Positions 3,155 to 46,936 are shown, counted from the first letter of the stretch. The stretch: 64,000 nt of DNA from Squalus acanthias (GCA_030390025.1 CM059431.1:99078001-99142000); one strand, 5' to 3'. The notes: generated from the sequence alone by a model not told the origin. Made by a program: numbers and translations.

Positions 3155-3484
3155 CGACCACATTCAAACGGATGGTGTGTCCCATTGCTTTTACATCCCC
3201 TTGGTTGGCTCGACATTGGTAGGAGCCTCTGTCAGTCAGGTTAATGGAAGAGAATGTGTAAACAATCAACATTTGGGCTGTGTCATTGGGAGAAGTTGTC
3301 CAGTTTATTTTTTCTCCACCCAGTGGCTCACAACTGTTTGAATGGAATTTACACCAATGCACCGCAAGTGGTTTTACTCGACAGTACTCTATCGTACAAT
3401 TCAACGTCAAACTGTCTCCAACAGAACGATTGAGCACAGCTCGGGGATATCTCACTTGCAATGAACAAGCATCACTTCCGTTTC
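3155..3484 (-). CDS. BTLA: Ig-domain exon of a BTLA (CD272)-like receptor
   Basis: 330-nt phase 1-1 exon, acceptor ttttcttttacag|GA and donor GTCG|gtaagt. Translation GNGSDACSLQVRYPR...LTLNCTIEYC...VHWCKFHSNSC...DRGSYQCRAN...GHTIRLNVV has six Cys in the BTLA pattern (C..CxxxYC..WCK..C..YxC) and six N-glycosylation sequons. Confidence 0.85.
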
Positions 3485-4559
3485 CTGTAAAAGAAAAGTT
3501 CAAAATGTTCTTCTATTGTCATCTTCATACAAAGGAATTTGCAAACAATGGCCTAGAGATTCAGCCGCACTGCCGACCGCTAAACGGCCTCCAACACAGC
3601 GGGCGGGAAGCACATGCTCCTTACGAGCCAGGTGAGGCGTTGGTGTCGACACAATTTGTCCGCAATACGCGGTGGACGGTGTAACCAGGAGGGGAGAGAG
3701 AGAGATAGCAGTCTGGTCAGCTTCACCTCTGGTTTAGGATTGAAGTAACAGCGCAGAGGAACCCCCAGCGGGAGAGCTGAACGGGGCTGAAGTGCACAGT
3801 GGTCACAATCCCGTGGATCCCAGCTTTCTTTTGTGTCACTTCTATTGTTGATTTATTCCTGCACTTCATTGCAACGGGGTTCCCACCCCCCGCCTTCGCC
3901 CCACAGCTCGGGCCTCAGAGGGCTGTGAAGGCAGGAAGGCGTCTCATCTTTTTCCCTTGTTTGTGAGCTGAAATCGCTGGGGGTCGAGAGCCCATGGTAC
4001 GAGGTGGGGGTGGGGTGGGGGGGGGAAGGGGGTGACCGAAATAATTTAATGTCAGATAATTGCACTTTAACGAGGTGGGAACAGCTGCTTGAACTCGCCT
4101 GAAACAGCCGGCGAGCGTAATACGGTTCAGGTGTTGCCTTAGTAATTGACGCCTATGGCAATGGAAAATGGCCGGCACCAATGTTCCCCAGTAAGCTTTG
4201 CCGCGATCTGCTGGTCCTGCACCGCCGGCTCAACGGGGTTCTTCTAATGGCAAAAACCGCGGTAATTTGAATGCGCCGCGCAGCCTCGTAACGGGGCCAG
4301 GCACCCAAAATAAAAATCAGTGGGATCATTGGCCAGCACCCTTTGCCCAATATAGGAGGCAGCCCCCAGGATAAGCGGGGACGGTGGAAGCAGTGGGGTC
4401 TGTACTGACGACAAACTGCACTGATTTTGGTGATTGGAGAAAAGGGCAAACCTTGTTCTTCAACACGCTAACCACATATGAGTGGAAGGCTGTTGCATGC
4501 CTGCACAATGGACCCCAGTGAGTCTACAATCAGGTCCACGAACTTGCCCGGGATCCCTT

Positions 4560-4850
4560 TTTATTTATTTATTCATTCTGGGGATGTGGGCGTCGCTGGC
4601 AAGGCCGGCATTTATTGCCCATCCCTCGTTGCCCTGGATACAACTGAGTGACTCGCTGGGCCACTTCAGAGGGCAGTTAAGGGTCAACCACGTGGGTGTG
4701 GGACTGGAGTCACATATAGGCCCAGACCGGGTAAGGACGGCAGGTTTCCTTCCCTGAAGGTCATTAGTGAAGCAGATGGTTTTTTTTAGGACAATCCACA
4801 GCTTTATGACCACTTTTAACCGACACCAACTTTTTATTTCCTGATCTGAC
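4560..4850 (-). mobile_element. tRNA-SINE family B fragment
   Basis: Shares the core agggaaggaaacctgccgtccttacccggtctgg with 16330-16710 and 45777-46480; tail matches the LINE family X end. Confidence 0.75.
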
Positions 4851-5196
4851 TGGGGCCATTCCAGAACATGAGGGTAAGCCCAAGGTGACTGATGACATGA
4901 AAATGCCCGATAGTGTGGTGTAGCCGACTACCCCGGAGATCGAGCATGGCCTGCTGAATCTTTCTTCCCTGCCTTTGAGAATTAAACAGGGGGCCGAGTG
5001 AGAGCAGTGGGGAATTAGCCCCCTGAGGCACCGGGTGAGAAGACGGTGTAGTGCCCTGGGATTGGATACCAGACAGTGTCCTGCCAGGCTGCTCGAAACC
5101 AGAATGACGGAATGCAATAAGCACGATCCCCTTCAGGGCTGTCACAACAACTTCTGACTCTGCCTCTTGTGTTATTAATGTTAGCATTTCAGAGGA

Positions 5197-5695
5197 TCAG
5201 AGAATGATACAGCACAGAAGGAGGCCATTCGGCCCATCGTGCCTGTGCCGGCTCTTTGAAAGAGCTCTCCAATTAGTCCCACTCCCCCCTGCTCTTTCCC
5301 CACAGCCCTGTAAATGTTTCCTTTTCAAATATTTATCAAATTCCCTTTTGAAAGTTACTATTGAATCTGCTTCCACCGCCCTTTCAGGCAGCGCATTCCA
5401 GATCACAACAACTCGCTGTGTAAAAAAAATCTCCTCATCTCACCCTCTGGTTCTTTTGCTAATGACCTTAAATCTGTGTCCTCTGGTTACTGACCCTCCT
5501 GCCACTGGAAACAGTTTCTCCTTATTTACTCTATCAAAACCCTTCATAATTTTGAACATATCTATTAAATCTCCCTTTAACCTTCTCTGCTCTAAGGAGA
5601 ACAATCCCAGCTTCTCCAGTCTCGCCACATAACTGAAGTCCCTCATCCCTGGTACCGTTCTGGTAAATCTCCTCTGCACCCTCTCCAAAACCTTG
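5197..5695 (-). mobile_element. CR1 LINE 3' fragment
   Basis: [10 protein letters not shown]...[16 protein letters not shown]...TRGHRFK CR1 ORF2 C-terminus and 3' UTR. Confidence 0.85.
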
Positions 5696-6489
5696 AAGGT
5701 GCAAAAATAAACCTGCAGCTCTGCCCCGATCACCGTTTTAAGGTTAGCATCATCTGCACTGAAGCTCACCACAAGCAAACGTCTTTAGCTTATTGCAAAC
5801 TGCTTATTCGTACAACTAACAATTTTTCTTCTTTCAAACACTTTAATAATTTCAGGTTCCTGATTTACTCTGAACACAAGTGTGTTTTTTTTACTTTAAA
5901 TTCATGTATTTTGTTCCTCTTGCTGGGATTATTGGAACCAGACTCCTTCTCTGTCTATATTTTTGTTAGGTTTCGAATATTTCTGTTGGGTAAGGGTTTT
6001 GGGGGATATGAATCAAAGGCGGGTAAATGGAGTTGAGGTGCTGATCAGCCGTGATCTAATTGAGTGGCGGAACAGGCTCGAGGGGCTCAATGGCCTCCTA
6101 TTGTCTCCAGATGGTCAGTTCTCTACTTGATGGTCAATGCTCTAGTAAAGCAGATAAGCCAATGTAAATGGGAGCTCCAATGGCCAAGGGCATCGGGGAG
6201 TGAGATCTGCCAATAGTAGACTACAAGAACTTTAATGGTTGTAACTGTGAAACGTGCAATTGCCTGTGGAAAATGCTCAAGCTGAACAGCTCAGGCTACC
6301 AGCTATGGTTGGTGCTGTGGAGAGTGTGGTGGGCTGGGTGTGGCGCTCGGTGGAATGGTGCGGGGCCAGTGAGAGGAACAAGTGAAACAAGATGTGTGAG
6401 GTAGGTTCACATTTGGAATATGAATGCACAAATATAACCTTGTTCTCAAGCCCACATTGACAACAAATTATTCAAGGCTTATTTTAAAA

Positions 6490-9444: not shown

Positions 9445-9766
9445 CGATTTTAAAATTCTCATCCATGTTTTCAAATCCCTCCATGAGCTCGCCCCTCCCT
9501 ATCTCTGTAACGTCCTCCGATATCTCTGCGCTCCTCTAATACTGGACTCTTGCACATCCCCGCTTTCTATCGCCCCACCAGTGGCGGCCGTGCCTTCAGC
9601 TGCCTGGGCCCTGAGCTCTGGAATTCCCTCCCTAAACCACTCCGCCTCTCTCTCCTCCTTTAAGATGCTCCTTAAAACCTACCTCTTTCCTGGCTTAATA
9701 TCTCTTTATGTGGCTCGGTGTCAAATTTTGTTTGGTAATCGTCCCCGTGAAGCGGTTTGGGATGTT
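9445..9766 (+). mobile_element. L2 LINE 3' fragment interrupted by a CR1
   Basis: L2 3' sequence stops at about 9766 and its tail tataaatgcaagttgttg resumes at 10911. Confidence 0.7.
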
Positions 9767-9776
9767 GGAGGTGCTA

Positions 9777-10910
9777 TGGGCACATGGGATTGGGGGCAAG
9801 GTATTGACTTGGATAGAGAACTGGTTGGCAGACAGAAAGCAAAGAGTTGCAATAAACGGGTCTTTTTCCGAGTGGCAGGCAGTGACTAGTGCGGTACCGC
9901 AGGGATCGGTCCTTGGACCCCAGCTATTCACAATATATATTAATGATCTAGACAAGGGAACTAGATGTAATATCTCCAAGTTTGCAGACGACACAAAACT
10001 GGCTGGGCGTGTGTGCTGCGAGGAGGATGCCGAGAAACTCCAGGATGATTTGGACAGGTTGGGTGATTGGGCAGAAGCATGGCAGATGCAATATAACGTG
10101 GATAAATGCGAGGTTATCCACTTTGCTGTCAAAAACAGAAAGGCAGATTATTATCTGAATGGCAATAGATTGGGAGAAGGGGAAGTGCAACGAGACCTGG
10201 GTGTCCTTGTGCACCAGTCGCTGAAAGTAAGCATGCAGGTGCAGCAGGCGGTTAAGAAGGCAAATGGTATGTTGGCCTTCATAGCGAGAGGGTTTGAGTA
10301 CAGGAACAAGGATGTCTTGCTGCAGTTGTACAGGGCCTTGGTGAGACCACACCTTGAGTACAGTGTGCAGTTTTGGTCGCCTTATCTGAGGAAGGATGTT
10401 CTTGCCATGGAGGGAGTGCAGCGAAGATTCACAAGGCTGATACCTGGGATGGAAGGAATGATGTATGAAGAGAGATTGGGTCGATTGGGCTTATACTCGC
10501 TGGAGTTTAGAAGAATGAGAGGGGATCTCATTGAAACTTATAAAATTCTGACAGGACAGGACAAACTAGATGCAGGAAGGATGTTCCCGATGGTTGGGGA
10601 GTCCAGAACCAGTGGTCACAGTCTAAGCATAAGGGGTAAGCCATTTAGGACAGAAATGAGGAGGAATTTCTTCACCCAGAGAGTGGTGAACCTGTGGAAT
10701 TCTCTGCCACAGAAGGCAGTAGAGGCCAATTCATTAAATAGATTCAAGAAGGAGTTGGATATATTTCTTAAGGCTAAAGGGATCAAGGGATATGGGGAGA
10801 AAGCAGGGACAGGGTACTGAATTTGGATGATCAGCCATGATCGCATTGAATGGCGGAGCAGGCTAGAGGGGCCGAATGGCCTACTCCTGCTCCTATCTTC
10901 TATGATTCTA
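9777..10910 (+). mobile_element. 5'-truncated CR1 LINE with open RT C-terminal half
   Basis: VPQGSVLGP, FADDTK, RPHLEY, SLEFRRMRGDLIE; ORF open to the stop at 10820; same subfamily as 52513-53790. Confidence 0.95.
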
Positions 10911-11134
10911 TATAAATGCAAGTTGTTGTTGTTTTACATAAGAACATAAGAATTAGGAGCAGGAGTCGGCCATTTGGCCCCTCGAGCCTGCTCCGCCATT
11001 CAATAAGATCATGGCTGATCTTTGACCTCATCTCCACTTTCCTGAACTATCCCCATATCCCTTGATTCCCTTAATATTCAAAAATTCATTCTTTTTGAAT
11101 TGTACTGAGTGTACTCAGTATTGTATTGTACTCC

Positions 11135-12185
11135 GCCGCACTGTCGGAGGGTCAGTACTGAGGGAGCGCCGCACTGTCGGGGGTCAGTACTGAGGGAGCG
11201 CTGCACTGTCGGGGGGTTAGTACTGAGGGAGTGCCGCACTGTCGGGGGGTCAGTACTGAGGGAGTGCCGCACTGTCGGGGGGTCAGTACTGAGGGAGTGC
11301 CGCACTGTCGGAGGGGCAGTGCTGAGGGAGTGCCGCACTGTCGGGGGGTCAGTACTGAGGGAGCGCCGCACTGTCGGGGGGTCAGTACTGAGGGAGCGCT
11401 GCACTGTCGGGGGGCAACACTGAGGGAGCGCCGCACCGTCAGAGGGGCAGTACTGAGGGAGCGCTGCACTGTCGGAGGGGCAGTACTGAGGGAGTGCCGC
11501 ACTGTCGGGGGGTCAGTACTGAGGGAGCGCCGCACTGTCGGTGGGGCAGTACTGAGGGAGTGCTGCACTGTCGGAGGGGCAGTACTGAGGGAGCGCTGCA
11601 CTGTCGGAGTGGCAGTACTGAGGGAGCGCTGCACTGTCGGAGGGCTAGCACTGAGGGAGTGCCGCACTGTCGGAGGGTCAGTATGAGGGAGTGCCGCACT
11701 GTCGGAGGGACAGCACTGAGGGAGCGCTGCACTGTCGGAGGGACAGTACTGAGGGAGCGCTGCACTGTTGGAGGGGCAGTACTGAGGGAGCGCTGCACTG
11801 TCGGAGGGGCAATGCTGAGGGAGCGCCGCACTGTCGGAGGGGCAGTACTGAGGGAGTGCTGCACTGTTGTCGTGTGCCGTCTTTCAGATGATATATTAAA
11901 CCGAGAGCCCGTCTGTCCTCTCAGGTGGATGTAAAAGATCTATTTCAAAGAAGAGCAGGGGGTGTTCTCCCTGGTGTCCTGGCCAGCATTTACCCCATAA
12001 TCAACACCTAAAACAGATTATCAGCTCATTTATCACATTGCTGTTTGTGGGAGCTTGCTGTGCACCAGTTGGCTGCTGTGTTTCCTACATTACGACAGTG
12101 ACTATGCTTCAAAAATACTTCATTGGCTGTAAAGGGCTTTGGGACTTCCTGAGGACCTGGAAGGCGCCATAGAAATGCAAGTTCA
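11135..12185 (+). mobile_element. SINE family A with 33-bp array (about 11135-11866)
   Basis: Array followed by SINE body and tail. Confidence 0.85.
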
Positions 12186-13180
12186 GTCTATTTTGTTTGG
12201 CACAGGGAGTATGTAATATCCTTGGACATGCCAGGAATTAAAAAAACTCAGTTTAACAACTTGCATTAAAAAATGTACCTCTCAGTAAAGTACGGAGCTC
12301 AATCATCTAAATGTTAATATTTTAAGGACATTTCCCTTCACCCAAAACAAGAGCAGGAATATGCACACACTGTGAGGACCTGATCCCAATGCCCATCCTA
12401 CAGCTACATATAGAGACACCACAGGTCCCGGCCAGAATGGAGATGATTGGGTAATTCCCCCGTCAATCACTGCTGTGAGTGACTGGTTTTGATTTTACAC
12501 ATCATTTGTATTGTGTACTATCCTCCACTCATTGCATTTTGCTGGAGAAATAATCCTACTTTTATCGGGAGACTTTGCTGCAGTTTTGTTCATGGGTTCT
12601 GTTTGCTGTAGTTCACAGTGACTCTGCTTAAATAGACTCTGTAGACTGTTTGCTATAAACTAGACTCTATTTGCTGAGTAAATAGACTCTGTAGACTGTT
12701 TGCTACGAGTCCTGCCATAAGTCCCGCCCAGCTTCCAACTCATTGGCTGACACAGAGGTGTTGATACTCACTCTATTATTTAAAACAAAACCTTTTCTTT
12801 CCTTAAACAAACGTTAAAATCTAAAATTAATTTCAATGACTAAGCCGCTGTATAAATAGAACACCACAGGGTCTCAGTTGGAGACCACATTTGAACAGAC
12901 CGTAGAATTGACCAGATGCATTTGATCTATGACTCATGGCTGGCCGCTCATGTGCTATGTGGTTTGATGTGGTCAGACACCTTGAGATATACCTATATGT
13001 AACCATCCTCCAAACAGACCACTCTAATATAGCAGGTGTCCTTCACAGGGAGGTCAACCACCCTCAGGAGGCTGTTTCTGTGACATCACAGAGAGAAACA
13101 CCATTTAATTAAAAAAAAATTATTAACCTGTTGTTGTGATCTGGAATGCACTGCCTGAAAGGGTAGATTCAGAAGTAACA

Positions 13181-14061
13181 GCTGCACTGTCGGAGGGGCA
13201 GTACTGAGGGAGCGCTGCACTGTCGGCGGGGCAGTACTGAGGGAGCGCCGCACTGTTGGAGGGGCAGTACTGAGGGAGCGCCGCACTGTCGGAGGGGCAG
13301 TACTGAGGGAGCGCAGCACTGTCGGAGTGGCAGTACTGAGGGAGCGCCGCACTGTCGGAGGGGCAGTACTGAGGGAGCGCTGCACTGTCAGAGGGGCAGT
13401 ACTGAGGGGGCGCCGCACTGTCGGAGGGGCAGTACTGAGGGAGCGCAGCACTGTCGGAGGGCAGTACTGAGGGAGCGCCGCACTGTCGGAGGGGCAGTAC
13501 TGAGGGAGTGCTGCACTGTCAGAGGGGCAGTACTGAGGGAGCGCCGCACTGTCGGAGGGACAGTACTGAGGGAGCGCTGCACTGTCTGAGGGGCAGTACT
13601 GAGGGAGTGCTGCACTGTCGGAGTGGCAGTACTGAGGGAGCGCCGCACTGTCGGAGGGGCAGTACTGAGGGAGTGCTGCACTGTCAGAGGGGCAGTACTG
13701 AGGGAGCGCCGCACTGTCGGAGGGACAGTACTGAGGGAGCGCTGCACTGTCTGAGGGGCAGTACTGAGGGAGTGCTGCACTGTCGGAGGGGCAGTACTGA
13801 GGGAGCGTTGCACTGTCGGAGGGGCAGTACTGAGGGAGCGCCGCACTGTCGGAGGGGCAGTACTGAGGGAGAGCTGCACTATCGGAGGGGCAGTACTGAG
13901 GGAGTGCTGCACTGTCGGAGGGGCAGTACTGATGGAGTGCTGCACTGTCGGAGGGGCAGTACTGAGGGAGCGCCGCACTGTCGGAGGGGCAGTACTGAGG
14001 GAGCGCCACACTGTCGGAGGGACAGTACTGAGGGAGCGCCGCACTGTCGGAGGGGCAGTAC
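13181..14061 (+). repeat. Stand-alone 33-bp SINE-derived minisatellite
   Basis: Same unit, without recognisable SINE head or tail; flanked by CR1-like fragments. Confidence 0.9.
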
Positions 14062-30391: not shown

Positions 30392-30482
30392 CTTGTCTCT
30401 GTACGGCAAAGAGAAGCAAGACGGCCAAGAGGAAACCGTCGCGAATTCTTATAAACCACATCGTTCTCCAAAAAGTAGTCAT
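30392..30482 (-). CDS. BTLA: Probable signal-peptide (leader) exon of the BTLA-like gene
   Basis: ATG at 30482 opens MTTFWRTMWFIRIRDGFLLAVLLLFAVQRQ followed by CAAG|gtaagg, a phase-1 donor. It joins in frame (G+GA=Gly) to the Ig exon at 3484. Lies in non-repetitive sequence; not in the ORF track. Confidence 0.7.
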
Positions 30483-36479: not shown

Positions 36480-36647
36480 TAGTAAATATTGTTGTTGTAA
36501 GGATGTGTTCACTGATTATTGATAAATTTATCAATTCACTTCGGATAATTTTGTACTGTCTCTCATTTCAGCTGTGCACTGTGATATGGCCTGCGACAGG
36601 GATGGAATGATGGGGATGTGGTGAGCAACGGGGATCTGGGGTTTAAT

Positions 36648-39016
36648 TTACTGGCACCTTCCGGAAGGCCGATTGAGTGACTGCCTCCTCCCTCGCTCTT
36701 GTTCCTCCTCCTCTCCCCCTTTCTCCTCCTGAGGTGGTCCCACAATCCCTGGTGGCAAGGGCTGGGCCCTCATGATGGCCAAGTTGTGGAGCATGCAGAC
36801 CACCACGAAATGGGACACCCGCTCTATCGAGTACTGGAGGGCTCCTCCCGAGTGGTCAAGGCAGCGGAACTGTTGCTTGAGCAGCCCGATGGTCTGCTTG
36901 ATGATGTTCCTGATGGCAACATGGCTGTCATTATATGAGCGCTGAGCAGGAGTGTTGGGGTTGCGGAGGGGAGTCATGAGTCAGGTGGAGAGCGGATAGC
37001 CCTTGTCTCTGACCAGCCAGCCGCGAGCTTGATGTGGTGGCTGGAACAGAGCTGGCACACTGGTCTGGCGCAGGATGAAGGCATCGTGGCTGCTGCCAGG
37101 ATAGTGGGCAATCACATTGAGGATTCGCTGTGTGTGGTCGCACACCAACTGCATATTAAGTGAGTGGTAGCCTTTGTGGTTATGGAAGATGTCAGGATTG
37201 TTTGTAAGCTTCGCAAAATTCCCCAGAAACTCGTATAGAACCCTAAAAGAGGTGAATTTTGGATTTGTCATACGAATTTGGGATGATGGGACCTAAATGT
37301 AGTGATTTGAGGCAGAAACCTCAGTTTTGGACATTTTTAAAGATCAGGGAAGAAAACCCCTGAGGAAAATGACTTTTGGATATGACTATGGGGAAAAATA
37401 CCTTTCACAGACACAAGACAGGCTGCGAAGGGGTGTGGCGAGGCAGTGGACAGCTTTTGGTGTCAAGCTGTCTGGAATTTGTTTGCACTGCAATCCAGGC
37501 AGGAGGAAGAACCTCACCCAAAACCTCACAAACACATCCAAAATTGAATAATTCAAAAACCCTTTTGAAAATCCCCAGGCCCAGTCAAGAAACCCAAAAC
37601 ACGAGGACAATGCAAACTCCGATTAAACAACAGATCGACAGGATGGAGCTATCCTGAAACCACTTCACACATTTACAAAACCAGTTAACACGCTAGTAAA
37701 GTCGTTACTGTTAACGAGGTCTTACAATGACCAGGATTTGATTTGGTTTTGACAAGGCCACTTCAATTTAGTATAATTGAAGGCCCATCAAGCAGTTACA
37801 AGTTCGAGCTCTCCAGTAAAACAGTTCAAGTTCAACAGAATTGAAAGCCTGTGTTGAACAGAAGTCAGGGCTGCAGTTACAGAAGCAGGCAGAAGGCAGT
37901 TTCCACAGTTCTGCAAGAAGGCAGTTCCACAGCTCGGAAGAAGACAGTTTAAACAGAGGCAGAGTTACAGCAAGAAGTTAAACAAAGAAGGCCAACAGCT
38001 TCACAAGCAAACCGACACGCAAGAAGAAACCAGAGCGACTGCCTCAGTGACCATCGGACACCTCGCGGCAACAAGAGCCTCACGAAACCTTTTACTCAAA
38101 AGACTCTAAACCCTAACTCTAAGCTGTCAAGGATTCGTTTGGTGAGCATTATCCCTGGTTCTCCAGAGTCCAACCTAGCTAGTGAAGTGGATTGGGAGGG
38201 GTGAAGTATTCTTCAAATGTTATTTCCCTCGCTTGTACCGAAGTGTTCCCCACTTTTAGCGTGATAAGAGTGTTTGTGTTGTGTTTTACTTCCTTGAATA
38301 AAAGTCAAAGTTTTTTCATCAAAACCTGTTGTCTACTGCACCTTTGTTCACAACCCCCAAATAAGTCTAAGGTCTAGAACCAGGGGCGTGGGAGTGATTC
38401 GAACCGCTCACTGAGTCAGAGGTGAGGCTGACCCCTACCACACCACCCCCTACATGTTATGCGGTGCCCACAAAGCCACGTGGGTGCAGTCAATGGCGCC
38501 CTGCAGCATGGGGAAGCCTGCTATCCGGGCAAAGCCACTTGCACACTCGTCCTGCTTCTCTCTGGTGATGGGGAAGGAAATGTAATCCCTTCTACTGTAG
38601 AGAGCCTCTGTGACCTCCTGGATGCAGCGATGGACAGCGAACTGCGAGATGTTAGTTATATCTCCTGTTGCACACTGGAAGGATCCGCTGGCGAAGAAAT
38701 TGAGGGCGACGGTGACCTTTACTGCCACTGGGAGAGCTGTGGTCACCCTGATCTGAGGCTGGCGGTCTGGTTGCAGGAGGTGGCAGAGTTCTGTGACCAC
38801 ATCCTTCGTGAAGCAGAGCCTTCGAATGCACTGCTCCTCGCTTAATTGGAGGTTGGAGAAGTGCTCTCGGAGTACCCTCGGAGGGTAAGGCCTCCTGTTG
38901 AGAGCCCTGATGGCCCTCCTCCTCCCTCTGGCCACATGTTCCAGTCTTTCTTGCTGCCTCCGCTCCCTCCACCATAGATCCTGGAGGGCAAGGTTGACTG
39001 CCAGTACAGCCCCCAT
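36648..39016 (-). pseudogene. Harbinger (HARBI1-type) DDE transposase, split by an LTR and carrying a nonsense codon
   Basis: 39016-38455: ALNFFASGSFQ...GFPMLQGAIDCTHV. 37202-36648: NHKGYHSLNMQLVCD...YPGSSHDAFIL...DKGYP...GLLKQQFRCL...MLHNLA. TGA at 36981-36983. Confidence 0.9.
37203..38454 (+). mobile_element. Solo LTR (1252 bp)
   Basis: TGTAAG...CTACA termini, 4-bp TSD tgtt (37199-37202, 38455-38458), AATAAA near 38298; removal restores APHNNPDIF in the transposase. Confidence 0.85.
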
Positions 39017-39929
39017 TAATGTAAGGATGTGCAGCACTTTGTTGTGAGAATAAATGTAACTCATTTTTAGAAGCTGCAACACTCCGGAGACTAAACAACA
39101 TTTGAATGACTGAATTCAACTCTTGAACTATCTCAAACTGACAAGGAAGCAGTGAAACTGCACTAACCCGAGAGCTGCGACTCATTCCTCATGATCCCTT
39201 TAAGTAGCGCCCCTGGAGCCGGCTACCGCCTGCTTCACGCCTCCTCTCCCTGTCGCTGTCGGGGCAAGACGCTAAGGCAGGGGGCGATAATCAATTTGGC
39301 AGGTTGGGCGCCCAGTGAGCGTTGCACACTCACTGACATCACGATCTGCCTGGCGCTGAAGTCCCCGGCGCCATCTCGTAGCGGAGGCGCTACGGGGGGG
39401 GGGGGGGGTCGGCCGAATTTGGCGTGCGGCGCTGGATTCACCTCGTCATGGCGCTACTTCCTCAGCGCCCCGTTAGCACCCGCGCCAGGCGCTAACTGGA
39501 GGCACTAAGGTACCGAATTTCTCCCCCACAGTGTTTAACTTGCTGTAAGCAGCAAATTTGTAATAGACTATAAAAGTAATGAAAATGTTTAGTGTTTTTT
39601 AGCCAATTTTAACAAAAGCCCAATTTAAACATTGGTGCCTCGGGGAGTGTGGACTGTATCAAAGAGAATACCTTGCCCAACTTCCGATCTGTCAGAAAAG
39701 GAGCAGAGATTTTGCTGCCGTCAAGACGATTTTCTCCCTAAAATATATGATGGATCCACGATTCATAAATATATCGTTTTTAAAAACAGGTTCTGTGTTT
39801 ATTGAGATGGGTGACATACAGAAAGAACGTATAAACACCAGAGAGAGAAAAATAAAGAACGGAATCTTTTTGAAAACGGCAAGACTCAGTTCACCCTGAA
39901 TATCAAACTAGCCCGGAACTGGAAACAGA

Positions 39930-41190: not shown

Positions 41191-41199
41191 TACATGATT

Positions 41200-41449: not shown

Positions 41450-41549
41450 CTGTGACAAAACAAATATCAACACGTTACCAGCCCCAAACCTGCACCCAGA
41501 GCTTCATCAGAATCAAGACCTGGGACAAAACTACAGACACACTTAAGGA

Positions 41550-43438
41550 TCATTCAAATACCACTCCAGAGACTTGAGCACATAATCCAGGCTGACACTC
41601 CCAGTACAGTACTGAGGGAGCGCCGCACTGTCGGCGGGGCAGTACTGAGGGAGCGCCGCACTGTCGGAGGGACAGTACTGAGGGAGCGCCGCACTGTCGG
41701 CGGGGCAGTACTGAGGGAGCGCCGCACTGTCGGAGGGACAGTACTGAGGGAGCGCCGCACTGTCGGAGGGGCAGTACTGAGGGAGCGTCGCACTGTCGGA
41801 GTGGCAGTACTGAGGGAGCGCTGCACTGTCGGAGGGGCAGTACTGAGGGAGCGCCGCACTGTCGGAGGGGCAGTACTGAGGGAGCGCTGCACCATCGGAG
41901 GGGCAGTACTGAGGGAGCGCTGCACTGTCGGAGGGGCAGTACTGAGGGAGTGCTGCACTGTCGGAGGATCAGTACTGAGGGAGCGCCACACTGTCGGAGG
42001 GGCAGTACTGAGGGAGCGCTGCACTGTCGGAGGGTCAGTACTGAGGGAGCGCCACACTGTCGGAGGGGCAGTACTGAGGGAGTGCTGCACTGTCAGAGGG
42101 TCAGTACTGAGAGAGCCGCACTGTCAGAGGGTCAGTACTGAGGGATGCTGCACTGTCAGAGGGTCAGTACTGAGGGAGCGCCACACTGTCGGAGGGGCAG
42201 TACTGAGGGAGTGCTGCACTGTCAGAGGGTCAGTACTGTGGCAGCGCCGCACTGTCGGAGGGGCAGTACTGAGGGAGCGCCGCACTGTCGGAGGGGCAGT
42301 ACTGAGGGAGCGCCGCACTTTCGAAGGGCATGTACTGAGGGAGTGCTGCACTGTCAGAGGGGCAGTACTGAGGGAGTGCTGCACTGTCGGAGGGTCAGTA
42401 CTGAGGGAGCGCCACACTGTCGGAGGGGCAGTACTGAGGGAGTGCTGCACTGTCAGAGGGTCAGTACTGAGGGAGTGCCGCACTGTCGGAGGGGCAGTAC
42501 TGAGGGAGCGCCGCACTGTCGGAGGGGCAGTACTGAGGGAGCGCCGCACTTTCGAAGGGCTTGTACTGAGGGAGCGCTGCACTGTCGGAGGGGCAGTACT
42601 GAGGGGGTGCTGCACTGTCAGAGGGTCAGTACTGAGGGAGCGCCACACTGTCGGAGGGGCAGTACTGAGGGAGTGCTGCACTGTCAGAGGGTCAGTACTG
42701 AGGGAGCGCCACACTGTCGGAGGGGCAGTACTGAGGGGGTGCTGCACTGTCAGAGGGTCAGTACTGAGGGAGTGCCGCACTGTCGGAGGGGCAGTACTGA
42801 GGGAGCGCCGCACTGTCGGAGGGGCAGTACTGAGGGAGCGCCGCACTTTCGAAGGGCTTGTACTGAGGGAGCGCTGCACTGTCGGAGGGGCAGTACTGAG
42901 GGGGTGCTGCACTGTCAGAGGGTCAGTACTGAGGGAGCGCCACACTGTCGGAGGGTCAGTACTGAGGGAGTGCTGCACTGTCGGAGGGGGCAGTACTGAG
43001 GGAGTGCCGCACTGTCGGAGGGGCAGTACTGAGGGAGCGCTGCACTGTCGGAGGGGCAGTACTGAGGGAGCGCTGCACTCTCTGAGGCGCAGTACTGAGG
43101 GAGCGCCGCACTGTCGAAGGGGCAGTACTGAGGGAGCGCCGCACTGTCGGAGGCGCAGTACTGAGGGAGCGCCGCACTGTCGAAGGGGCAGTACTGAGGG
43201 AGTGCTGCACTGTCGGAGGGGCAGTACTGAGGGAGCGCTGCACTATCAGAGGGGCAGTACTGAGGGAGTGCTGTTCTGTCAGAGGTGCCGTCTTTCGGAT
43301 GAGACATTAAACCGAGGCCCCGTCTGCTCTCTTAGCTGGACGTAAACGATCCCATGGCACTATTTTGGAGACGAGATGTCCTGGGGCCAATATTGATCCC
43401 TCAACCAACATCACTAAAACAGATTGTCTGGTCATTTT
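41550..43438 (+). mobile_element. SINE family A with the largest 33-bp array (about 41608-43283, roughly 50 units)
   Basis: Partial head, array with higher-order repeats of variant units, body. Confidence 0.9.
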
Positions 43439-44393
43439 CTGATGACATGGATTAGAGTTTTACAAGCTGCTCCTTGTGATCTTGAGAATAAGGGTTATTT
43501 GGGCACACTAGATTATGATGAGTTCTGCTAACAGTGCCATACCTGTGAGTGTGACAAAACAATTGTTTGAGTCTTAACAGGGGCTATTTCATTATCTTTC
43601 TGTCTGTACATTGATCCCTGGTCTCCATTACGCTGTTCCTGGGTGTGTCCCCGGTGTCCATGTTACTATCTCTATTGATAGTAAAGAAAGAAAGAAAGTC
43701 TTGCATTTCTCTAGCCCCTTTCACGTCCTCAGGACGTCGCAAAGCGCTTTACAGCCAATGAAGCACTTTTGAAGTGTAGTCACTGTTGTAATGTAGGAAA
43801 CACGGCAGCCAATTTGCGCACAGCAAGCTCCCACAAACAGCAATGTGATAATGACCAGATAATCTGTTTTTTTAAGTGATGTTGGTTGTGGGATAAATAT
43901 TGGCCAGTACGCCGGGGAGAACTCCCCTGCTCTTTTAACTAGACAACAGTATCTAAAACATTGGTGGCAATAAGTAAAACCGGATATTAACAAGGTACAG
44001 GATTAATAGTTGCAAAATTAGTTTCAGCAGCCCCTCCCAAACCCCCGACCTCCACCACCTAGAAGGACAAGGGCAGCAGGCGCATGGGAACACCACCACC
44101 TCCAAGTTCCCCTCCAAGTCACACACCATCCTGACTTGGAAATATATCGTCCGTTCCTTCATCGTCGCTGGGCCTAAATCCTGGAACTCCCTCCCTAACA
44201 GCACTGTGGGAGCACCTTCACCACACGGACTGCAGCGGTTCAAGAAGGCGGCTCACCACCACCTTCTCGAGGGCAGTTAGGGCTGGGCACATTCCGAGAC
44301 TGAATCAGTTAAATGGATATTGTTGGGAGAACTGATACAGTAAAATTATAGCCATAATTGTGACATTGCGAAGTAATTCTTTCACTTACCTGT

Positions 44394-44518
44394 TCAAAAA
44401 TTTAACGCAGTGACACACTGCAGAATGAACATTAATACCCACAGTGTATGCACAGAAATCTCAAGGGTTTTCATCCCACTGTTTTCAGCAGCCAGGTCTA
44501 CTTCCTCCTGAAGTTTTC
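44394..44518 (-). CDS. C-terminal exon of the second Ig gene, GPI-anchor-signal-like tail
   Basis: Acceptor aataatacag|GA in phase 1 with the Ig exon 2 kb upstream (A+GA=Arg). Reads RKLQEEVDLAAENSGMKTLEISVHTLWVLMFILQCVTALNF-stop. Strong donor ACAG|gtaagt 4 nt after the stop (exon end 44390). Confidence 0.7.
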
Positions 44519-44627
44519 CTGTATTATTTAGGAAAGTGGAGAAATTAGTTTAATGCTGCAGGTACCTTGGAATCCTTAGAATCAAATATGGGGAAGTGGT
44601 CAACATAGGCACACCATGAAGTGAATT

Positions 44628-45040
44628 AGAGGCTTGTATTCCCTGGAGTGTAGAAGATTAAGGGGTGATCTAATCGAGGTGTTTAAGATGATTAAAGGAG
44701 TTGACAGTGTAGAGAGAGAGAAACTATTTCCTCTGGTGGGGGGAGTCCAGAACAAGGGGGCATCACCTTAAAATTAGAGCCAGGCCGTTCAGGGGTGATG
44801 TCAGGAAGCACTTCTTCACACAAAGGCTGGCGGAAATCTGGAACTCTCTCCCCAAAAAGCTGTTGAGGCTGGGGGTCAATTGGAAATTTCAAAACTGAGA
44901 CTGATAGATTTTTGTTGGGTAAGGGTATTAAGGGATACGGAACCAAGGCGGGTAGATGGAGTTAAGACACAGGTCAGCCAGGATCTGATTGAAGGGTGGA
45001 ACAGGCGCGAGGGGCTGAGTGGCTCCTCCTGTTCCTGTGT
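44628..45040 (+). mobile_element. CR1 3' fragment
   Basis: CR1 ORF2 end and 3' UTR. Confidence 0.8.
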
Positions 45041-45302
45041 AAATTGTTGATGGTGAGGGAAGGTTCTATAGATTGCCAACTACTTGTAAATCCTCGACTC
45101 TTTCCCTTGGTCAGAAGAAACCCACAGGAAACGATTGGTTTTCTATCTTGGATCAATGTTGCAAGTGTGCTCTTGAGATTGTCCAAGAAGAGTTTGGGGA
45201 AATTATAGTCAGGGGAACCTTTTTGGATAATTGGAGCTGACAAACATTTCACTGCAGGGATTGGTGTTCTGGGAGAGACTGTGACTATACGCAGTGTTTA
45301 AA

Positions 45303-45752
45303 TAGAATGTACAGCACAGAAACAGGCCATTTGGCCTGACTGGTCCGTGCCGGTGTTTATGCTCCACTCGAGCCTCCTCCCACCCCTCTTCATCTCACCC
45401 CATCAACATATCCTTCTATTCCTTTCTCCCTCATGTGTTTATCCAGCTTCTCCTTAAATGCATCTACGCTATTCGCCTCAACCACTCCCTGTGGTAGCGA
45501 GTTCCACATTCTAACCACTCTCTGGGTAAAGAAGTTTCTCCTGAATTCCCTATTGGATTTATTAGTGACTATCTCATATTGATGGCCCCTAGTTCTGGTC
45601 TCCCCCACAAGTGGAAACATCTTCTCTGTGTCTACCCTATCGAACCCCTTCAGAATTTTAAAGACCTCGATCAGGTCACCCCTCAGTCTTCGGTTTTCTG
45701 GAGAAAAGAGCCCCAGCCCGTTCAATCTTTCCTGATAGTTAGAGCCTCTCAG
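45303..45752 (-). mobile_element. CR1 3' fragment
   Basis: [20 protein letters not shown]...GIEGYVDGVR. Confidence 0.85.
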
Positions 45753-45776
45753 TGCCCAGAACAGCAAAATATATAT

Positions 45777-46480
45777 TTTTTAATTCATTCTCGGGATGTG
45801 GGCGTCACCGGCAAGGCCAGCATTTATTGCCCATCCCTAATTGCCCTCGAGAAGGTGGTGGTGAGCCGCCTTCTTGAACCGCAGAGGGCAGTTTAAAGTT
45901 AACCACATTGCCGTGGGTCTGGAGTCATATATAGGCCAGGTCGGGTAAGGACGGCAGATTTCCTTCCCTGAAGGACATTAGTGAACCAGATGGGTTTTTA
46001 CAACAATCCGGTAGTTACATTACTGATTCTAGCTTTTTATTCCAGATTTATTTAATTAACTGAACTCTGCTTTGCTTCACAAAAACAAAACAAACCTAGA
46101 AGTAAAGGGAATTAAGGGTTACGGGGAGCGGGCAGGAATTTGGACATGAGTCTAGGTTCGGATCGGTCATGGCCCTGTGGGTAGCGTAGCGGGCCCAGGG
46201 GCCGTGTAGCCTGATCCTGCTCCTATTTCGTGTGTCCAATTCTGTTAGGTTCAGGAGATGGTTCTGTGAGAGTAGATTGGCAGTTAAGATCAGATCAGCC
46301 ATGATCTTATTGAATGGCGGAGCAGGCTCGAGGGGCCAATTGGCCTACTCCTGCTCCTATTTCTTATGTTCTTATGTTAAATTCCCCAGCTGCCGTGGTG
46401 GGATTTGAACTCATGGCTCTGGATCATTAGTCCAGGCCCCTGGATTGCTAGCCCAGCGACATTACCACTGTGCTACCATA
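45777..46480 (-). mobile_element. SINE family B, near complete, with CR1 tails nested (about 46066-46378)
   Basis: tRNA-like head tggtagcacagtggt...gagttcaaatccc near 46480, core and LINE-X-like tail. Confidence 0.75.
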
Positions 46481-46576
46481 CTCGTAAATATAATCTTGTT
46501 TGCACATCTGCCTGGTTGAATATGCAATTACTAGTAATGCAATTAAATTGCTGGTGTACGAAGTTAGTCTACTTAC

Positions 46577-46936
46577 TCCGAACCGTTAAGGTGATGATGT
46601 GTCCATGTGCTGAAATTGACATGGCGCCAGTTATCTTGGCCTGGCACTGATAGCGTCCACTATCTGATTGATCCAGCTTTAAAAACCGAAGGAAGGCAAT
46701 CAGCTCAATGCTCTCATCTTCTTGTGGCTTTGGCTCTGTGAAGCCAACTTCATAGTTATGGTCATCTTCTATTCCAGAACATTCACTTCCTCCGATCAAT
46801 TTCTTACACCAGCGAATATCAGGCCTTTCATTCTTCGAGCTGTTGTAATTCACGGTGCAGTTCAAAGTCAGTCTCCTTCCTTCATCAATCTCAATGTGCG
46901 CTGATTTGTAGATGACCTGCAATGACCCTTCATACT
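46577..46936 (-). CDS. Ig-domain exon of a second BTLA/CD160-family gene
   Basis: 360-nt phase 1-1 exon, acceptor cctattcttcacag|AG and donor CGGA|gtaagt. EYEGSLQVIYKS...EGRRLTLNCTV...IRWCKKLIGGSEC...DSGRYQCQAK...AHGHIITLTVR; four Cys, canonical DxGxYxC. Confidence 0.85.

What the first reader, a model, noticed from the sequence alone, without database searches (positions are those of the whole stretch)
3155..46936. Head-to-tail pair of a BTLA-like gene and a CD160-like paralogue in a probable shark genome
Seen: two phase 1-1 Ig exons on the same strand sharing SLQVxY, LTLNCT, WCK..C, DxGxYQCxA and GHxIxLxV. They are separated by a stop-containing exon (44390-44518) and an independent leader exon (30392-30482), so they read as two genes. 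Established: in mammals BTLA (ITIM receptor) and CD160 (GPI-anchored single Ig) both bind HVEM/TNFRSF14 but lie on different chromosomes. Inference: the upstream gene has CD160 architecture and CD160-like motifs as I recall them (EGRRLTLNCTV vs EGTRLNLICTV; SGRYQC..GH vs SGTYQC..GH) while still resembling its BTLA neighbour. The locus may therefore preserve the tandem duplication that produced the BTLA/CD160 checkpoint pair, or an independent shark-specific equivalent.
Basis: partly seen in the sequence, partly recalled or inferred. Interest (0 to 1): 0.85.

Follow-up and report, generated by a model that had tools for sequence, protein, structure and literature searches.

The report
Shark BTLA and CD160 genes side by side
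In this cartilaginous-fish genome the inhibitory immune receptor gene BTLA lies directly behind a small lipid-anchored relative that sits where CD160 sits in humans, which suggests the two human checkpoint receptors began as neighbouring copies of one gene.

Summary
Two minus-strand, phase 1-1 Ig exons (3155-3484 and 46577-46936) are 30% identical (E 4e-12) and belong to two genes.

The downstream gene is a BTLA orthologue. It has its own leader exon. Below the window it has a transmembrane exon, a small exon, and a tail exon with YENA, IIYASL and TEYAAI motifs.

The upstream gene is one Ig domain plus a short exon that ends in a GPI-signal-like hydrophobic tail. A spliced contig joins these two exons.

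I read the upstream gene as the CD160 orthologue, for these reasons:
- It lies 55 kb from PDZK1 and 82 kb from GPR89, which neighbour CD160 in human 1q21.1.
- Its best single-Ig relatives are sauropsid proteins named CD160.
- It has the CD160 cysteine pattern and lacks BTLA's extra pair.
- A tree puts it on the CD160 side (88/84).

Weak points:
- The tree cannot reject a shark-only origin (AU p 0.23).
- Alone it matches human BTLA, not human CD160.
- Its leader exon was not found.
- No other species' synteny could be checked.

A possible USF3 gene beyond BTLA hints that the pair sits at a 3q13/1q21 junction.

The parts
46577..46936 (-). Ig-domain exon of the upstream CD160-like gene (phase 1-1, 119 whole codons, P0002)
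   Evidence: AG/GT borders. Translation. Pfam V-set 35.1 bits. Model pLDDT 88.8, nine-strand Ig fold. Contigs of runs X1 and X2 cover it, and the X1 contig stops at the exon's 3' border.
44390..44518 (-). Stalk plus GPI-signal-like exon of the CD160-like gene. Stop TGA at 44393-44395. A GT donor right after the exon is used.
   Evidence: Translation KLQEEVDLAAENSGMKTLEISVHTLWVLMFILQCVTALNF*: small residues N-S-G, a spacer of about 9 residues, an 18-residue hydrophobic end and no cytoplasmic tail. X3 contig record 17 has 224 letters. Letters 67-196 lie on 44388-44517 with 0 mismatches, and 66 letters before and 28 after are not contiguous here. X3 depth is 5.7 at 46622 and 46626, the same as the contig's depth. 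The exon is unique in the genome.
30392..30482 (-). Leader (signal peptide) exon of BTLA, ATG at 30482-30480, phase 1 donor
   Evidence: Translation MTTFWRTMWFIRIRDGFLLAVLLLFAVQRQ. 56% identity to residues 1-32 of Heterodontus BTLA-like P0079 (E 0.92 genome-wide because it is short). 67% over residues 1-15. Same MTT..RTMW start as P0078, P0079 and P0080.
3155..3484 (-). Ig-domain exon of BTLA (phase 1-1, P0001). The gene continues below the window: TM exon C7:99072674-99072832, small exon ending at about C7:99072516, last exon C7:99053082-99053348.
   Evidence: PDB: the 5 best of 166 matches are BTLA chains, E 8.6e-10 to 5.1e-8. 53-55% identity to shark BTLA-like proteins. Six-cysteine BTLA pattern. 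TM and tail exons.

Best explanation
The window holds two separate, same-strand genes of one small Ig family, 14 kb apart: stop codon of the first at 44393, start codon of the second at 30482.

The downstream gene is the BTLA orthologue of this cartilaginous fish. It has a leader, one Ig domain with three disulfides, a transmembrane helix, and a tail with a YxN site, an ITIM and an ITSM. It should act as an inhibitory receptor that recruits SH2 phosphatases after binding the fish's HVEM/TNFRSF14 (inferred from mammalian BTLA).

The upstream gene is the positional orthologue of CD160. It has one Ig domain with only two disulfides, a stalk of about 12 residues, and a C-terminal GPI-attachment signal. 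It would therefore be a lipid-anchored receptor without its own signalling tail, predicted to bind the same ligand through the conserved G-strand GH motif (inferred).

The pair most likely preserves the tandem duplication that gave rise to BTLA and CD160 before cartilaginous and bony vertebrates split. In the line to mammals the two genes were later separated onto different chromosomes (inferred).
For: BTLA:
- PDB phmmer: the top 5 of 166 matches are BTLA.
- Heterodontus BTLA-like P0079 matches exon by exon on C7: leader 56%, Ig 53%, TM 71%, tail 73%.
- The tail reads TIYENA, TIIYASL, TEYAAINIKH*. The TM is WIFYSIIVVGIVGAVLFLVMITYFCI, with phase-consistent borders. The small exon ends GETCRRNECH|GTAAGT.

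Two genes:
- A spliced contig joins 46577 to 44518 and goes on past 44390.
- The downstream gene has its own leader.

CD160:
- Of the 10 single-stretch hits of 168-201 aa looked up, 3 are named CD160 antigen(-like) and 0 are named BTLA.
- Against profiles that exclude the window's proteins, P0002 scores 80.6 bits on sauropsid CD160, 78.1 on fish single-Ig, 71.4 on all BTLA and 36.5 on shark BTLA.
- The family profile hits human CD160 6ng9 at 2.2e-15 against BTLA at 1.7e-9.
- Turtle CD160-like hits human CD160 at 6.9e-8 against BTLA at 1.1e-4.
- BTLA's extra cysteine pair is absent in P0002, in 12 of 12 sauropsid CD160 and in 13 of 13 fish single-Ig proteins. It is present in 3 of 3 shark BTLA and in P0001.
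- Careful tree of 43 rows: {all BTLA} splits from {P0002 + CD160 + fish single-Ig + C19 type} with support 88/84. P0002 + CD160 + fish form one side of a branch at 72/71.

Synteny:
- PDZK1 exons lie at C7:99180442-99180855 and 99191147-99191554. Their best PDB hits are PDZK1 PDZ1 at 1.2e-26 and PDZ3 at 3.5e-14.
- GPR89 exons lie at C7:99206692-99219679. This is the only genome place reaching E 0.001.
- The human gene list reads GPR89A, PDZK1, CD160, RNF115 (PMC5518118, passages).

Intactness: a DNA contig of a relative about 4% diverged keeps the frame open, with 7 replacements and 5 silent codons among the 14 listed differences.
Against: - P0002 alone against PDB finds BTLA (E 3.2e-3 to 5.6e-3). 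No CD160 chain is among its 62 matches up to E 10.
- The 10 best Foldseek matches of the P0002 model are BTLA chains, and no CD160 chain is among the rows shown. With VIA-align, BTLA (Z 14.8) is nearly tied with unrelated Ig domains (Z 13-14).
- P0002 is a long branch (1.35) and is unresolved within its side of the tree.
- The AU test does not reject placing it inside the cartilaginous-fish BTLA-like clade (p 0.229).
- Sauropsid CD160 proteins hit both window exons about equally in tblastn.
- No leader exon was found for the upstream gene in 56 kb.
- Runs X1-X3 are only guessed to be RNA.
- Other human 1q21.1 genes were not found on C7. POLR3C and RNF115 domain searches found nothing anywhere. 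PEX11 and PINIT hits lie on other contigs.
- Human BTLA neighbours ATG3 and CCDC80 lie on C5.
- The GPI signal was judged by eye; no predictor was run.
Confidence: 0.72

Rival explanations
1. The upstream gene is a cartilaginous-fish-specific duplicate of BTLA that lost its transmembrane and tail exons and gained a GPI signal. It would then be a convergent analogue of CD160, not its orthologue.
For: - The AU test does not reject P0002 inside the cartilaginous-fish BTLA-like clade (p 0.229).
- This genome has further BTLA-like copies: three Ig exons on C16 and one on C19.
- P0002 alone and its model match human BTLA rather than human CD160.
Against: - It lies next to PDZK1 and GPR89, as human CD160 does.
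- Its lowest profile score of all is to shark BTLA, 36.5 bits against 80.6 for sauropsid CD160.
- A sister position to the neighbouring BTLA exon is rejected (p 0.024).
- It has the CD160-type cysteine pattern and the longer B-C, C'-C'' and C''-D stretches.
- The best tree puts it on the CD160 side (88/84).
Confidence: 0.17
2. The two Ig exons are parts of one two-Ig BTLA-like gene, and the stop-bearing exon and the inner leader are alternative or spurious.
For: - Sharks do have two-Ig BTLA-like proteins: Scyliorhinus LOC119977572 P0011 and Callorhinchus P0040.
- Both exons are phase 1-1, so skipping 44390-44518 would stay in frame.
Against: - The contig of run X3 joins the upstream Ig exon to the stop-bearing exon.
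- The two-Ig gene of this genome is on C16, 72% identical to P0011.
- Annotated ITIM-bearing shark BTLAs have one Ig domain and the same MTT..RTMW leader as exon 30392-30482.
- 43 kb separate the two Ig exons.
Confidence: 0.04
3. BTLA and the CD160-like gene are old paralogues, but their adjacency here is secondary: one gene moved next to the other in the cartilaginous-fish line.
For: - Human BTLA neighbours ATG3 and CCDC80 lie together on another contig, C5:135.7-135.85 Mb. BTLA may therefore have left that block.
- Only one genome was examined.
Against: - Same-strand, head-to-tail neighbours of one family are the usual footprint of tandem duplication.
- The frame beyond BTLA may be USF3, a human 3q13 gene. 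That would mean BTLA's own flank is 3q13-like here too. This identification is not confirmed.
Confidence: 0.07

Closest known systems
CD160 (human 1q21.1; GPI-anchored single-Ig receptor for HVEM and MHC class I; structures 6NG3, 6NG9, 7MSG)
   Same: - One Ig domain followed by a short stalk and a hydrophobic C-terminus without a tail.
- Two-disulfide cysteine pattern, including the C..CK......C hairpin.
- EG..L.L.CTV, SG.YQC and GH motifs.
- Neighbours PDZK1 and GPR89.
- Nearest named relatives are sauropsid CD160.
   Different: - Direct similarity to human CD160 is too weak to be found by phmmer.
- The stalk is only about 12 residues before the likely attachment site.
- No N-terminal cysteine in the Ig exon.
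- The stop-bearing exon is internal: its donor is used.
- RNF115 was not found beside it; BTLA is there instead.
- Ligand binding is untested.
BTLA (human 3q13.2; ITIM/ITSM inhibitory receptor for HVEM; structures 2AW2, 1XAU, 6NYP)
   Same: The downstream gene has the following:
- its best PDB matches are BTLA;
- six-cysteine Ig domain;
- TM helix;
- YxN, ITIM and ITSM in the same order;
- five coding exons.
The His of the GH motif aligns with the His at chain position 102 of 2aw2. I recall this residue as H127, important for HVEM binding.
   Different: It lies next to the CD160-like gene and 72 kb from PDZK1, not next to ATG3 and CCDC80, which are on contig C5.
Teleost single-Ig proteins annotated zgc:174945, and sauropsid proteins annotated CD160 antigen(-like)
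   Same: - Same length class (about 170-200 aa), Ig domain plus hydrophobic C-terminus.
- They align over the whole Ig domain with L24, C26, W42, G93, C97, G111 and H112 invariant in 21 of 21 rows.
   Different: - Fish proteins carry an extra cysteine pair (12 of 13 and 13 of 13 at two columns) that P0002 and sauropsid CD160 lack.
- Identity to P0002 is only 21-36%.
Two-Ig BTLA-like genes of cartilaginous fishes (Scyliorhinus LOC119977572, Callorhinchus LOC103179522)
   Same: Same Ig family. Present in this genome on C16.
   Different: They have two BTLA-type Ig domains with the six-cysteine pattern and a short TM end in one gene. They lie on another contig, and they cluster with BTLA, not with P0002.

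Membership tests
BTLA | Single Ig domain most similar to BTLA, with the three-disulfide (six-cysteine) pattern | tested here: met
   The top 5 of 166 PDB matches are BTLA, E 8.6e-10 to 5.1e-8. The A-strand Cys and the YC Cys are present, as in 3 of 3 shark BTLA.
BTLA | Transmembrane helix and a cytoplasmic tail with a Grb2-type YxN site, an ITIM and an ITSM | tested here: met
   TM exon C7:99072674-99072832 and tail exon C7:99053082-99053348. The tail reads TIYENA, TIIYASL, TEYAAI. Phases are consistent.
BTLA | Conserved neighbourhood with human 3q13.2 genes | tested here: inconclusive
   ATG3 and CCDC80 domains map to C5, not C7. A 2255-codon frame 28 kb beyond BTLA may be USF3, a 3q13 gene, but only a sub-threshold HLH exon supports this.
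BTLA | Binds HVEM/TNFRSF14 | not testable with these tools
   No shark TNFRSF14 sequence was fetched and no complex was predicted.
CD160 | Single Ig domain with two disulfides (canonical pair plus C'-C'' hairpin), without BTLA's third pair | tested here: met
   P0002 has Cys at the canonical pair and in WCK......C only. The extra pair is absent in 12 of 12 sauropsid CD160 and in the human CD160 stretch shown.
CD160 | GPI-anchor signal at the C-terminus (no cytoplasmic tail in the main form) | tested here: met
   Read directly: N-S-G, a spacer of about 9 residues, then an 18-residue hydrophobic end followed by the stop. No GPI predictor was available, so this is a reading of the sequence, not a score.
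CD160 | Closer in sequence to CD160 than to BTLA | tested here: inconclusive
   For:
- profile scores of 80.6 bits (sauropsid CD160) against 71.4 (all BTLA) and 36.5 (shark BTLA);
- CD160-named best single-Ig hits;
- family profile to human CD160 at 2.2e-15 against BTLA at 1.7e-9.
Against:
- P0002 alone finds human BTLA at 3e-3 and no CD160 chain;
- Foldseek top 10 are all BTLA.
CD160 | Groups with CD160 in a tree | tested here: inconclusive
   The split between the BTLA side and the CD160 side has support 88/84. P0002 + CD160 + fish form a clade at 72/71. The alternative inside shark BTLA is not rejected, p 0.229. No mammalian sequences were in the tree.
CD160 | Conserved neighbourhood: next to PDZK1 and GPR89 | tested here: met
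   PDZK1 exons lie 55-66 kb and GPR89 exons 82-95 kb from the Ig exon on C7. Human list: GPR89A, PDZK1, CD160, RNF115 (PMC5518118). RNF115 was not located.
CD160 | Signal peptide / complete gene | tested here: not met
   No convincing ATG-signal-phase-1 exon was found between 46937 and 103000 of the extended sequence. Two unique but unconvincing candidates remain. The RNA-like contigs did not cover the 5' third of the Ig exon.
CD160 | Binds HVEM and/or MHC class I | not testable with these tools
   Not tested.

The most novel reading that the evidence does not exclude
The BTLA-CD160 pair of this fish sits exactly at the seam between a segment that is 3q13-like in humans (the probable USF3 gene beyond BTLA) and one that is 1q21.1-like (PDZK1, GPR89 beyond CD160). 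If so, the two human HVEM-binding checkpoint receptors were born as tandem neighbours in the jawed-vertebrate ancestor. They were later parted by a single chromosome break between them, each keeping its own flank.
Probability: 0.4. Interest if true: 0.75.

Novelty: new member of a known kind. Interest (0 to 1): 0.62.

Why it matters
BTLA and CD160 compete for the same ligand, HVEM, with opposite outcomes, and both are drug targets. How the pair arose is not described in any paper my searches found. A 2026 survey of IgSF evolution even groups both with mammal-restricted genes (PMC13262535, passages).

A cartilaginous fish with an ITIM-bearing BTLA and a GPI-anchored CD160-type gene head to tail, in CD160's human neighbourhood, has three consequences:
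- It dates the inhibitory/anchored pair to before the split of cartilaginous and bony vertebrates.
- It explains their shared ligand by common descent.
- It gives a concrete, testable model (tandem duplication, then separation) for comparative genomics and for binding studies with shark HVEM.

No annotated protein closely related to the upstream gene, from a shark or any other species, turned up in the protein collections searched. It may therefore be missing from current shark annotations.

Tried and rejected
- Word-index search with P0002 found no candidate. The atlas search gave only generic V-set clusters such as PD-1 and CTLA-4 types.
- The last word-index search, with a mixed alignment, returned 21 proteins. 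All were bird or fish CD160-like, with no mammalian CD160 or BTLA, so none could enter the tree.
- Leader exon of the upstream gene:
  - Two scans for ATG + hydrophobic stretch + phase-1 donor and tblastn with 15 homologues over 164 kb found nothing convincing.
  - The candidate at 61635-61521 lies in a repeat.
  - Candidates at 68092-67990 and 98886-98832 of the extended sequence are unique but unsupported.
- Sequencing runs: no RNA holder is listed. X1-X3 are only guessed to be RNA. The joint 46577>44518 is not in the 15 joints printed (10,941 were not shown). I infer it from record 17 and the depth table.
- Structure: Foldseek and VIA-align do not separate BTLA from other Ig domains well enough to decide. 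CD160 chains do not appear in the rows shown.
- Synteny markers that gave nothing: POLR3C PF05645 and RNF115 Zn_ribbon_19. PINIT and PEX11 hit other contigs.
- Pfam scans: 290 unique frames from 150 kb of flanks gave only PDZ and GPR89 hits.
- USF3 identity of the giant frame: no Pfam hit and no atlas hit. There is one sub-threshold HLH exon, with no significant PDB match.
- Earlier findings of this scan: nothing relevant.
- Literature: ten searches found no paper on CD160 in fishes or on BTLA-CD160 linkage. Liu et al. 2019 (PMC7477951) is not held. Bernard et al. 2007 on fish BTLAs was seen only as a reference-list title.

Full report
**What is in the window**

Both Ig exons lie on the minus strand. 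Exon 3155-3484 (330 nt) and exon 46577-46936 (360 nt) each follow an AG and precede a GT, and each is phase 1-1. Their translations share SLQV.Y, LTLNCT, WCK..C, D.G.YQC.A and GH.I.L.V. They align at 34 of 115 identities, E 4e-12. Both pass the Pfam V-set and Ig_2 thresholds.

Between them lie two further exons:
- Exon 44390-44518 is in frame with the upstream Ig exon and ends in TGA at 44393-44395.
- Exon 30392-30482 starts with ATG and encodes a 30-residue signal-peptide-like leader with a phase-1 donor.

**The downstream gene is BTLA**

The five best of 166 PDB matches of its Ig domain are human or mouse BTLA (E 8.6e-10 to 5.1e-8). The next family is at 8e-6, and human CD160 is at 0.1.

The word-index search among longer proteins returned 4 proteins from 25 candidates. 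All were from sharks, at 50-55% identity. One is named B- and T-lymphocyte attenuator-like (Heterodontus), and one is a two-Ig protein of Scyliorhinus. Three of the four carry a TM helix and the tail motifs TIYEN, IIYASL and TEYAAINI.

The window lies at C7:99078001-99142000 of a 3.7-Gb assembly. Searching that genome with the Heterodontus protein found matches in gene order on the minus strand of C7:

| Exon | Place on C7 | Identity |
|---|---|---|
| Leader | 99108387-99108482 | 56% |
| Ig | window exon 3155-3484 | 53% |
| TM | 99072674-99072832 | 71% |
| Tail | 99053082-99053348 | 73% |

The TM exon reads WIFYSIIVVGIVGAVLFLVMITYFCI and is phase 1-1. A small exon ends GETCRRNECH before GTAAGT. 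The last exon reads ...TIYENA...TIIYASL...TEYAAINIKH-stop. The gene therefore spans about 55 kb, and three of its five coding exons lie below the window. Its function as an SH2-phosphatase-recruiting inhibitory receptor is inferred from mammalian BTLA.

**The genome has further family members**

There are three BTLA-type Ig exons on C16 (47-63% identical to the window's BTLA exon) and one on C19 (30%). The C16 exons correspond to the two-Ig Scyliorhinus gene: 72% identity, with its own short TM end. The C19 exon groups with a two-Ig protein of Stegostoma and Rhincodon. The window pair is therefore part of a small family, not the whole of it.

**The upstream gene is separate and is spliced**

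Three small runs of one organism, whose RNA nature is only a guess on record, hold parts of the upstream Ig exon. Laid on 44001-55800, they show the following:
- Run X1 gives a 248-letter contig on 46576-46822 that stops at the exon's 3' border.
- Run X3 gives a 224-letter contig (record 17) whose letters 67-196 lie on 44388-44517 with no mismatch. The 66 letters before and the 28 after do not lie next to that stretch.
- X3 has depth 5.7, the depth of that contig, at 46622 and 46626 and none further into the exon.

I read this as the last 66 bases of the Ig exon joined to exon 44518-44390 and then to a further, unidentified exon. The joint itself is not among the 15 printed of more than 10,000, so this is an inference from two tables.

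It means the stop-bearing exon is used, and the GT after it is a working donor. With the stop only 3 nt before the junction, the next exon would be untranslated.

A fourth run, from a relative about 4% diverged, is plainly genomic: it has a 1026-letter contig running across both exon borders. Among its 14 listed differences inside the exon, 7 codons change the residue and 5 are silent. No stop appears. 14 of that contig's 40 differences were not listed, so the count is partial.

**Architecture of the upstream protein**

After the Ig domain come KLQEEVDLAAENSG, then MKTLEISV, then HTLWVLMFILQCVTALNF and the stop. That is a cluster of small residues (N-S-G), a spacer of about 9 residues, and an 18-residue hydrophobic end with nothing after it. 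This is the layout of a GPI-attachment signal. I read this from the sequence; no predictor was run.

The sauropsid and fish relatives end in the same way. The AlphaFold model of the Ig domain is confident, with pLDDT 88.8 and nine strands.

**Is it CD160? Sequence evidence**

The full-library HMMER search gave 66 proteins at E of 0.001 or better and none closer than 37% over a whole domain. No annotated protein closely related to it is therefore in that collection, from any species.

Names of the hits:
- Of the 10 single-stretch hits of 168-201 aa that I looked up, 3 are named CD160 antigen or CD160 antigen-like (emu, gecko, turtle). One is zgc:174945 (sardine). The other six are two unnamed records and four with uninformative names. 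None is named BTLA.
- Ten longer hits include 4 named BTLA(-like), from tuatara, sterlet, paddlefish and gar.
- The single-Ig BTLAs among these score 3e-5 and 3e-4, against 2e-9 to 1e-8 for the CD160-named proteins.

Profile results:
- A profile of 20 CD160-like proteins plus P0002 hits human CD160 at 2.2e-15 (59.9 bits) and BTLA at 1.7e-9 (40.7 bits).
- A turtle CD160-like protein alone hits human CD160 at 6.9e-8 and BTLA at 1.1e-4. The sauropsid names are therefore sound.
- Profiles built without the window's proteins score as follows:

| Profile | P0002 (upstream), bits | P0001 (BTLA exon), bits |
|---|---|---|
| Sauropsid CD160 | 80.6 | 63.1 |
| Fish single-Ig | 78.1 | 71.8 |
| All BTLA | 71.4 | 114.6 |
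| Shark ITIM-bearing BTLA | 36.5 | 134.7 |

Cysteine and loop patterns:
- The BTLA lineage has an extra cysteine pair, in the A strand and five residues after the first canonical cysteine. It is present in 3 of 3 shark BTLA, the window's BTLA, 5 of 6 two-Ig domains, 3 of 5 bony-fish or tuatara BTLA domains and 2 of 2 C19-type domains.
- It is absent from 12 of 12 sauropsid CD160, 13 of 13 fish single-Ig proteins and P0002.
- P0002 also shares the longer B-C, C'-C'' and C''-D stretches of the CD160 group in that alignment.

**Is it CD160? Tree**

A first tree of 66 domains was poorly resolved, with long branches. I then dropped 23 rows: the multi-Ig expansions P0007, P0008, P0015, P0025, P0027, P0036, P0050 and P0063, the rows P0062 and P0065, both domains of P0043, and P0016_d2 and P0045_d2.

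The careful tree of the remaining 43 rows by 117 columns recovers these groups:

| Group | Support |
|---|---|
| Sauropsid CD160 | 99/99 |
| Fish single-Ig | 87/88 |
| Bony-vertebrate BTLA | 100/99 |
| Cartilaginous-fish BTLA-like, including the window's BTLA | 88/84 |

One split, at 88/84, separates all BTLA from P0002 + CD160 + fish single-Ig + C19 type. P0002 has a long branch (1.35) and is unresolved within its side. P0002 + CD160 + fish single-Ig form one side of a branch at only 72/71.

AU tests:
- Forcing P0002 into the cartilaginous-fish BTLA-like clade costs 4.5 log-likelihood units and is not rejected (p 0.229).
- Forcing it to be sister of the neighbouring BTLA exon is rejected (p 0.024).

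The tree therefore leans to CD160 but does not settle the question. It contains no mammalian sequences, because none could be obtained as stored proteins.

**Evidence that points the other way**

- P0002 alone finds human BTLA (3.2e-3 to 5.6e-3) and no CD160 chain among 62 PDB matches.
- The ten best Foldseek matches of its model are BTLA chains.
- With VIA-align, BTLA leads (Z 14.8, rmsd 2.3, 103 aligned), but T-cell receptor and other Ig domains follow at Z 13-14.
- Sauropsid CD160 proteins hit the two window exons about equally in tblastn.

I take this to mean that the shark proteins are closer to the common ancestor than fast-evolving mammalian CD160 is. It is equally what a BTLA-derived copy would show.

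**Synteny, the strongest argument**

The only place in the genome that matches the GPR89 domain (PF12430) at E of 0.001 or better is C7:99206719-99206919, 65 kb above the window. I scanned 290 unique open frames from 100 kb above and 50 kb below the window against Pfam. This gave:
- three GPR89 exons on the minus strand (C7:99206692-99219679);
- two PDZ exons on the plus strand (C7:99180442-99180855 and 99191147-99191554);
- nothing else above chance.

The PDZ exons match PDZK1/NHERF3 specifically. One matches PDZ1 (2edz) at 1.2e-26, against 8e-9 for NHERF1. The other matches PDZ3 (2d90) at 3.5e-14, against 2.6e-10.

The order on C7 is therefore BTLA(-), CD160-like(-), PDZK1(+), GPR89(-). A clinical paper lists the genes of a human 1q21.1 duplication as GPR89A, PDZK1, CD160, RNF115, POLR3C... 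(PMC5518118, passages read). The upstream gene thus occupies CD160's place.

By contrast, ATG3 and CCDC80, which share human 3q13.2 with BTLA (PMC5847615, passages), lie together on another contig at C5:135.70-135.85 Mb.

Limits:
- RNF115 and POLR3C were not found anywhere by domain search.
- PEX11 and PINIT hits are on other contigs.
- Only this one genome could be examined.

**A lead beyond BTLA**

Twenty-eight kb below BTLA's last exon, on the plus strand, is an uninterrupted frame of 2255 codons (C7:99018474-99025238). The other frames have about 100 stops each. The frame is rich in S, Q and P. It opens with a zipper-like EEIVRLRKQLDELQKENDRFAELLKAN and has a His/Gln run near residue 1550.

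It has no Pfam hit and no atlas hit. Seven and a half kb upstream on the same strand, a 49-codon frame reads VERHRKKKINSGINKIGELIP and matches the HLH model below threshold (E 0.0024, 18.1 bits against a cut-off of 20.7). It has no significant PDB match.

From memory this looks like USF3/KIAA2018. The papers I read in passages describe that protein as having a predicted bHLH domain and a glutamine run at 1470-1478 (PMC5351935). They place it in a 3q13.13-q21.2 deletion together with CD200 (PMC9893219).

If the identification is right, BTLA's outer flank is 3q13-like and CD160's outer flank is 1q21-like. The pair would then sit at the seam. I could not confirm this.

**Most likely history and mechanism**

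An ancestral HVEM-binding Ig receptor gene duplicated in tandem before cartilaginous and bony vertebrates diverged. One copy kept or gained the TM and ITIM/ITSM tail and became BTLA. The other ended in a GPI signal and became CD160.

What is shown here:
- the two genes;
- their architectures;
- their adjacency;
- CD160's neighbours.

What is inferred:
- orthology of the upstream gene;
- the age of the duplication;
- ligand sharing;
- the later separation of the genes.

The invariant G-H in the last strand is present in 21 of 21 rows. It aligns with the His at chain position 102 of human BTLA 2aw2. I recall that residue as one needed for HVEM binding, which fits a shared binding mode.

**What is known**

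BTLA in fishes has been described (Bernard et al. 2007, seen only as a title in reference lists), and shark BTLA-like models exist in NCBI. Sauropsid CD160 models exist.

My ten searches found no paper on CD160 in fishes or on BTLA-CD160 linkage. A 2026 survey groups both with mammal-restricted IgSF genes (PMC13262535, passages). Subscription journals are mostly not in the library, and genome-browser knowledge is not searchable here, so prior notice cannot be excluded.

**Verdict**

The genes are new members of known families. The interest lies in the preserved adjacency and what it says about the origin of the pair.

Noticed in passing
L054:474-7238 (+) = C7:99018474-99025238, 53-60 kb below the window; L053:2656-2802 (+): An uninterrupted 2255-codon frame, S/Q/P-rich, with a zipper-like start and a His/Gln run near residue 1550. 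It has no Pfam or atlas hit. A sub-threshold HLH exon lies 7.7 kb upstream on the same strand. From memory it resembles USF3/KIAA2018, a human 3q13 gene.
   Followed up: partly
C7:99180442-99191554 (+) and C7:99206692-99219679 (-), 38-78 kb above the window: PDZK1 (PDZ1 and PDZ3 exons) and GPR89 (three exons). These are the human neighbours of CD160.
   Followed up: yes
G000 C16:61970464-62048250 and C19:23677911-23678288 (loci L002-L006, L027-L033): Further BTLA-type Ig exons. C16 holds a two-Ig gene with a short TM end (72% identical to Scyliorhinus LOC119977572) plus one more exon on the other strand. C19 holds a copy grouping with a two-Ig protein of Stegostoma and Rhincodon.
   Followed up: partly
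window 34996-39115: Harbinger-type transposon remains between the two genes: a Myb/SANT-like frame (34996-35454, +) and a DDE_Tnp_4 transposase broken into two frames (36648-37292, -). Two further long frames (35670-36479 +, 38450-39115 -) have no Pfam hit.
   Followed up: partly
window 1521-2054, 11078-11939, 13086-14225, 14600-15473, 19291-19924, 41456-43345, 55833-56653, 61171-61543: Many arrays of a 33-bp tandem repeat (consensus GCCCCTCCGACAGTGCAGCACTCCCTCAGTACT). They are open in all six frames and give long spurious ORFs. They seem tied to a SINE-like element that recurs through the region.
   Followed up: partly
window 58937-60618 and 62909-64000: Two G+C-rich minisatellites with periods 23/39/101 bp and 44/84 bp. 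The second runs off the window's end. Local G+C is 57-61%, against about 47% elsewhere.
   Followed up: no
window 9699-10820 (+), 20382-21236 (-), 52756-53697 (+), 54318-55106 (-): Retroelement fragments. One frame has a reverse-transcriptase hit (RVT_1, 6e-14). Two similar frames (20382-21236 and 52756-53697) have no family assigned here: the first gave no Pfam hit and the second was not scanned. One frame has a weak GIY-YIG hit, a domain I recall as typical of Penelope-like elements. A similar GIY-YIG frame lies at L053:4096-4434.
   Followed up: partly
window 30479-30490 (-): A three-codon upstream reading frame (ATG GGT AAA TGA) overlaps the BTLA start codon out of frame.
   Followed up: no
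window 33864-34619: A long imperfect AC-rich repeat that reads as His/Thr-rich frames.
   Followed up: no
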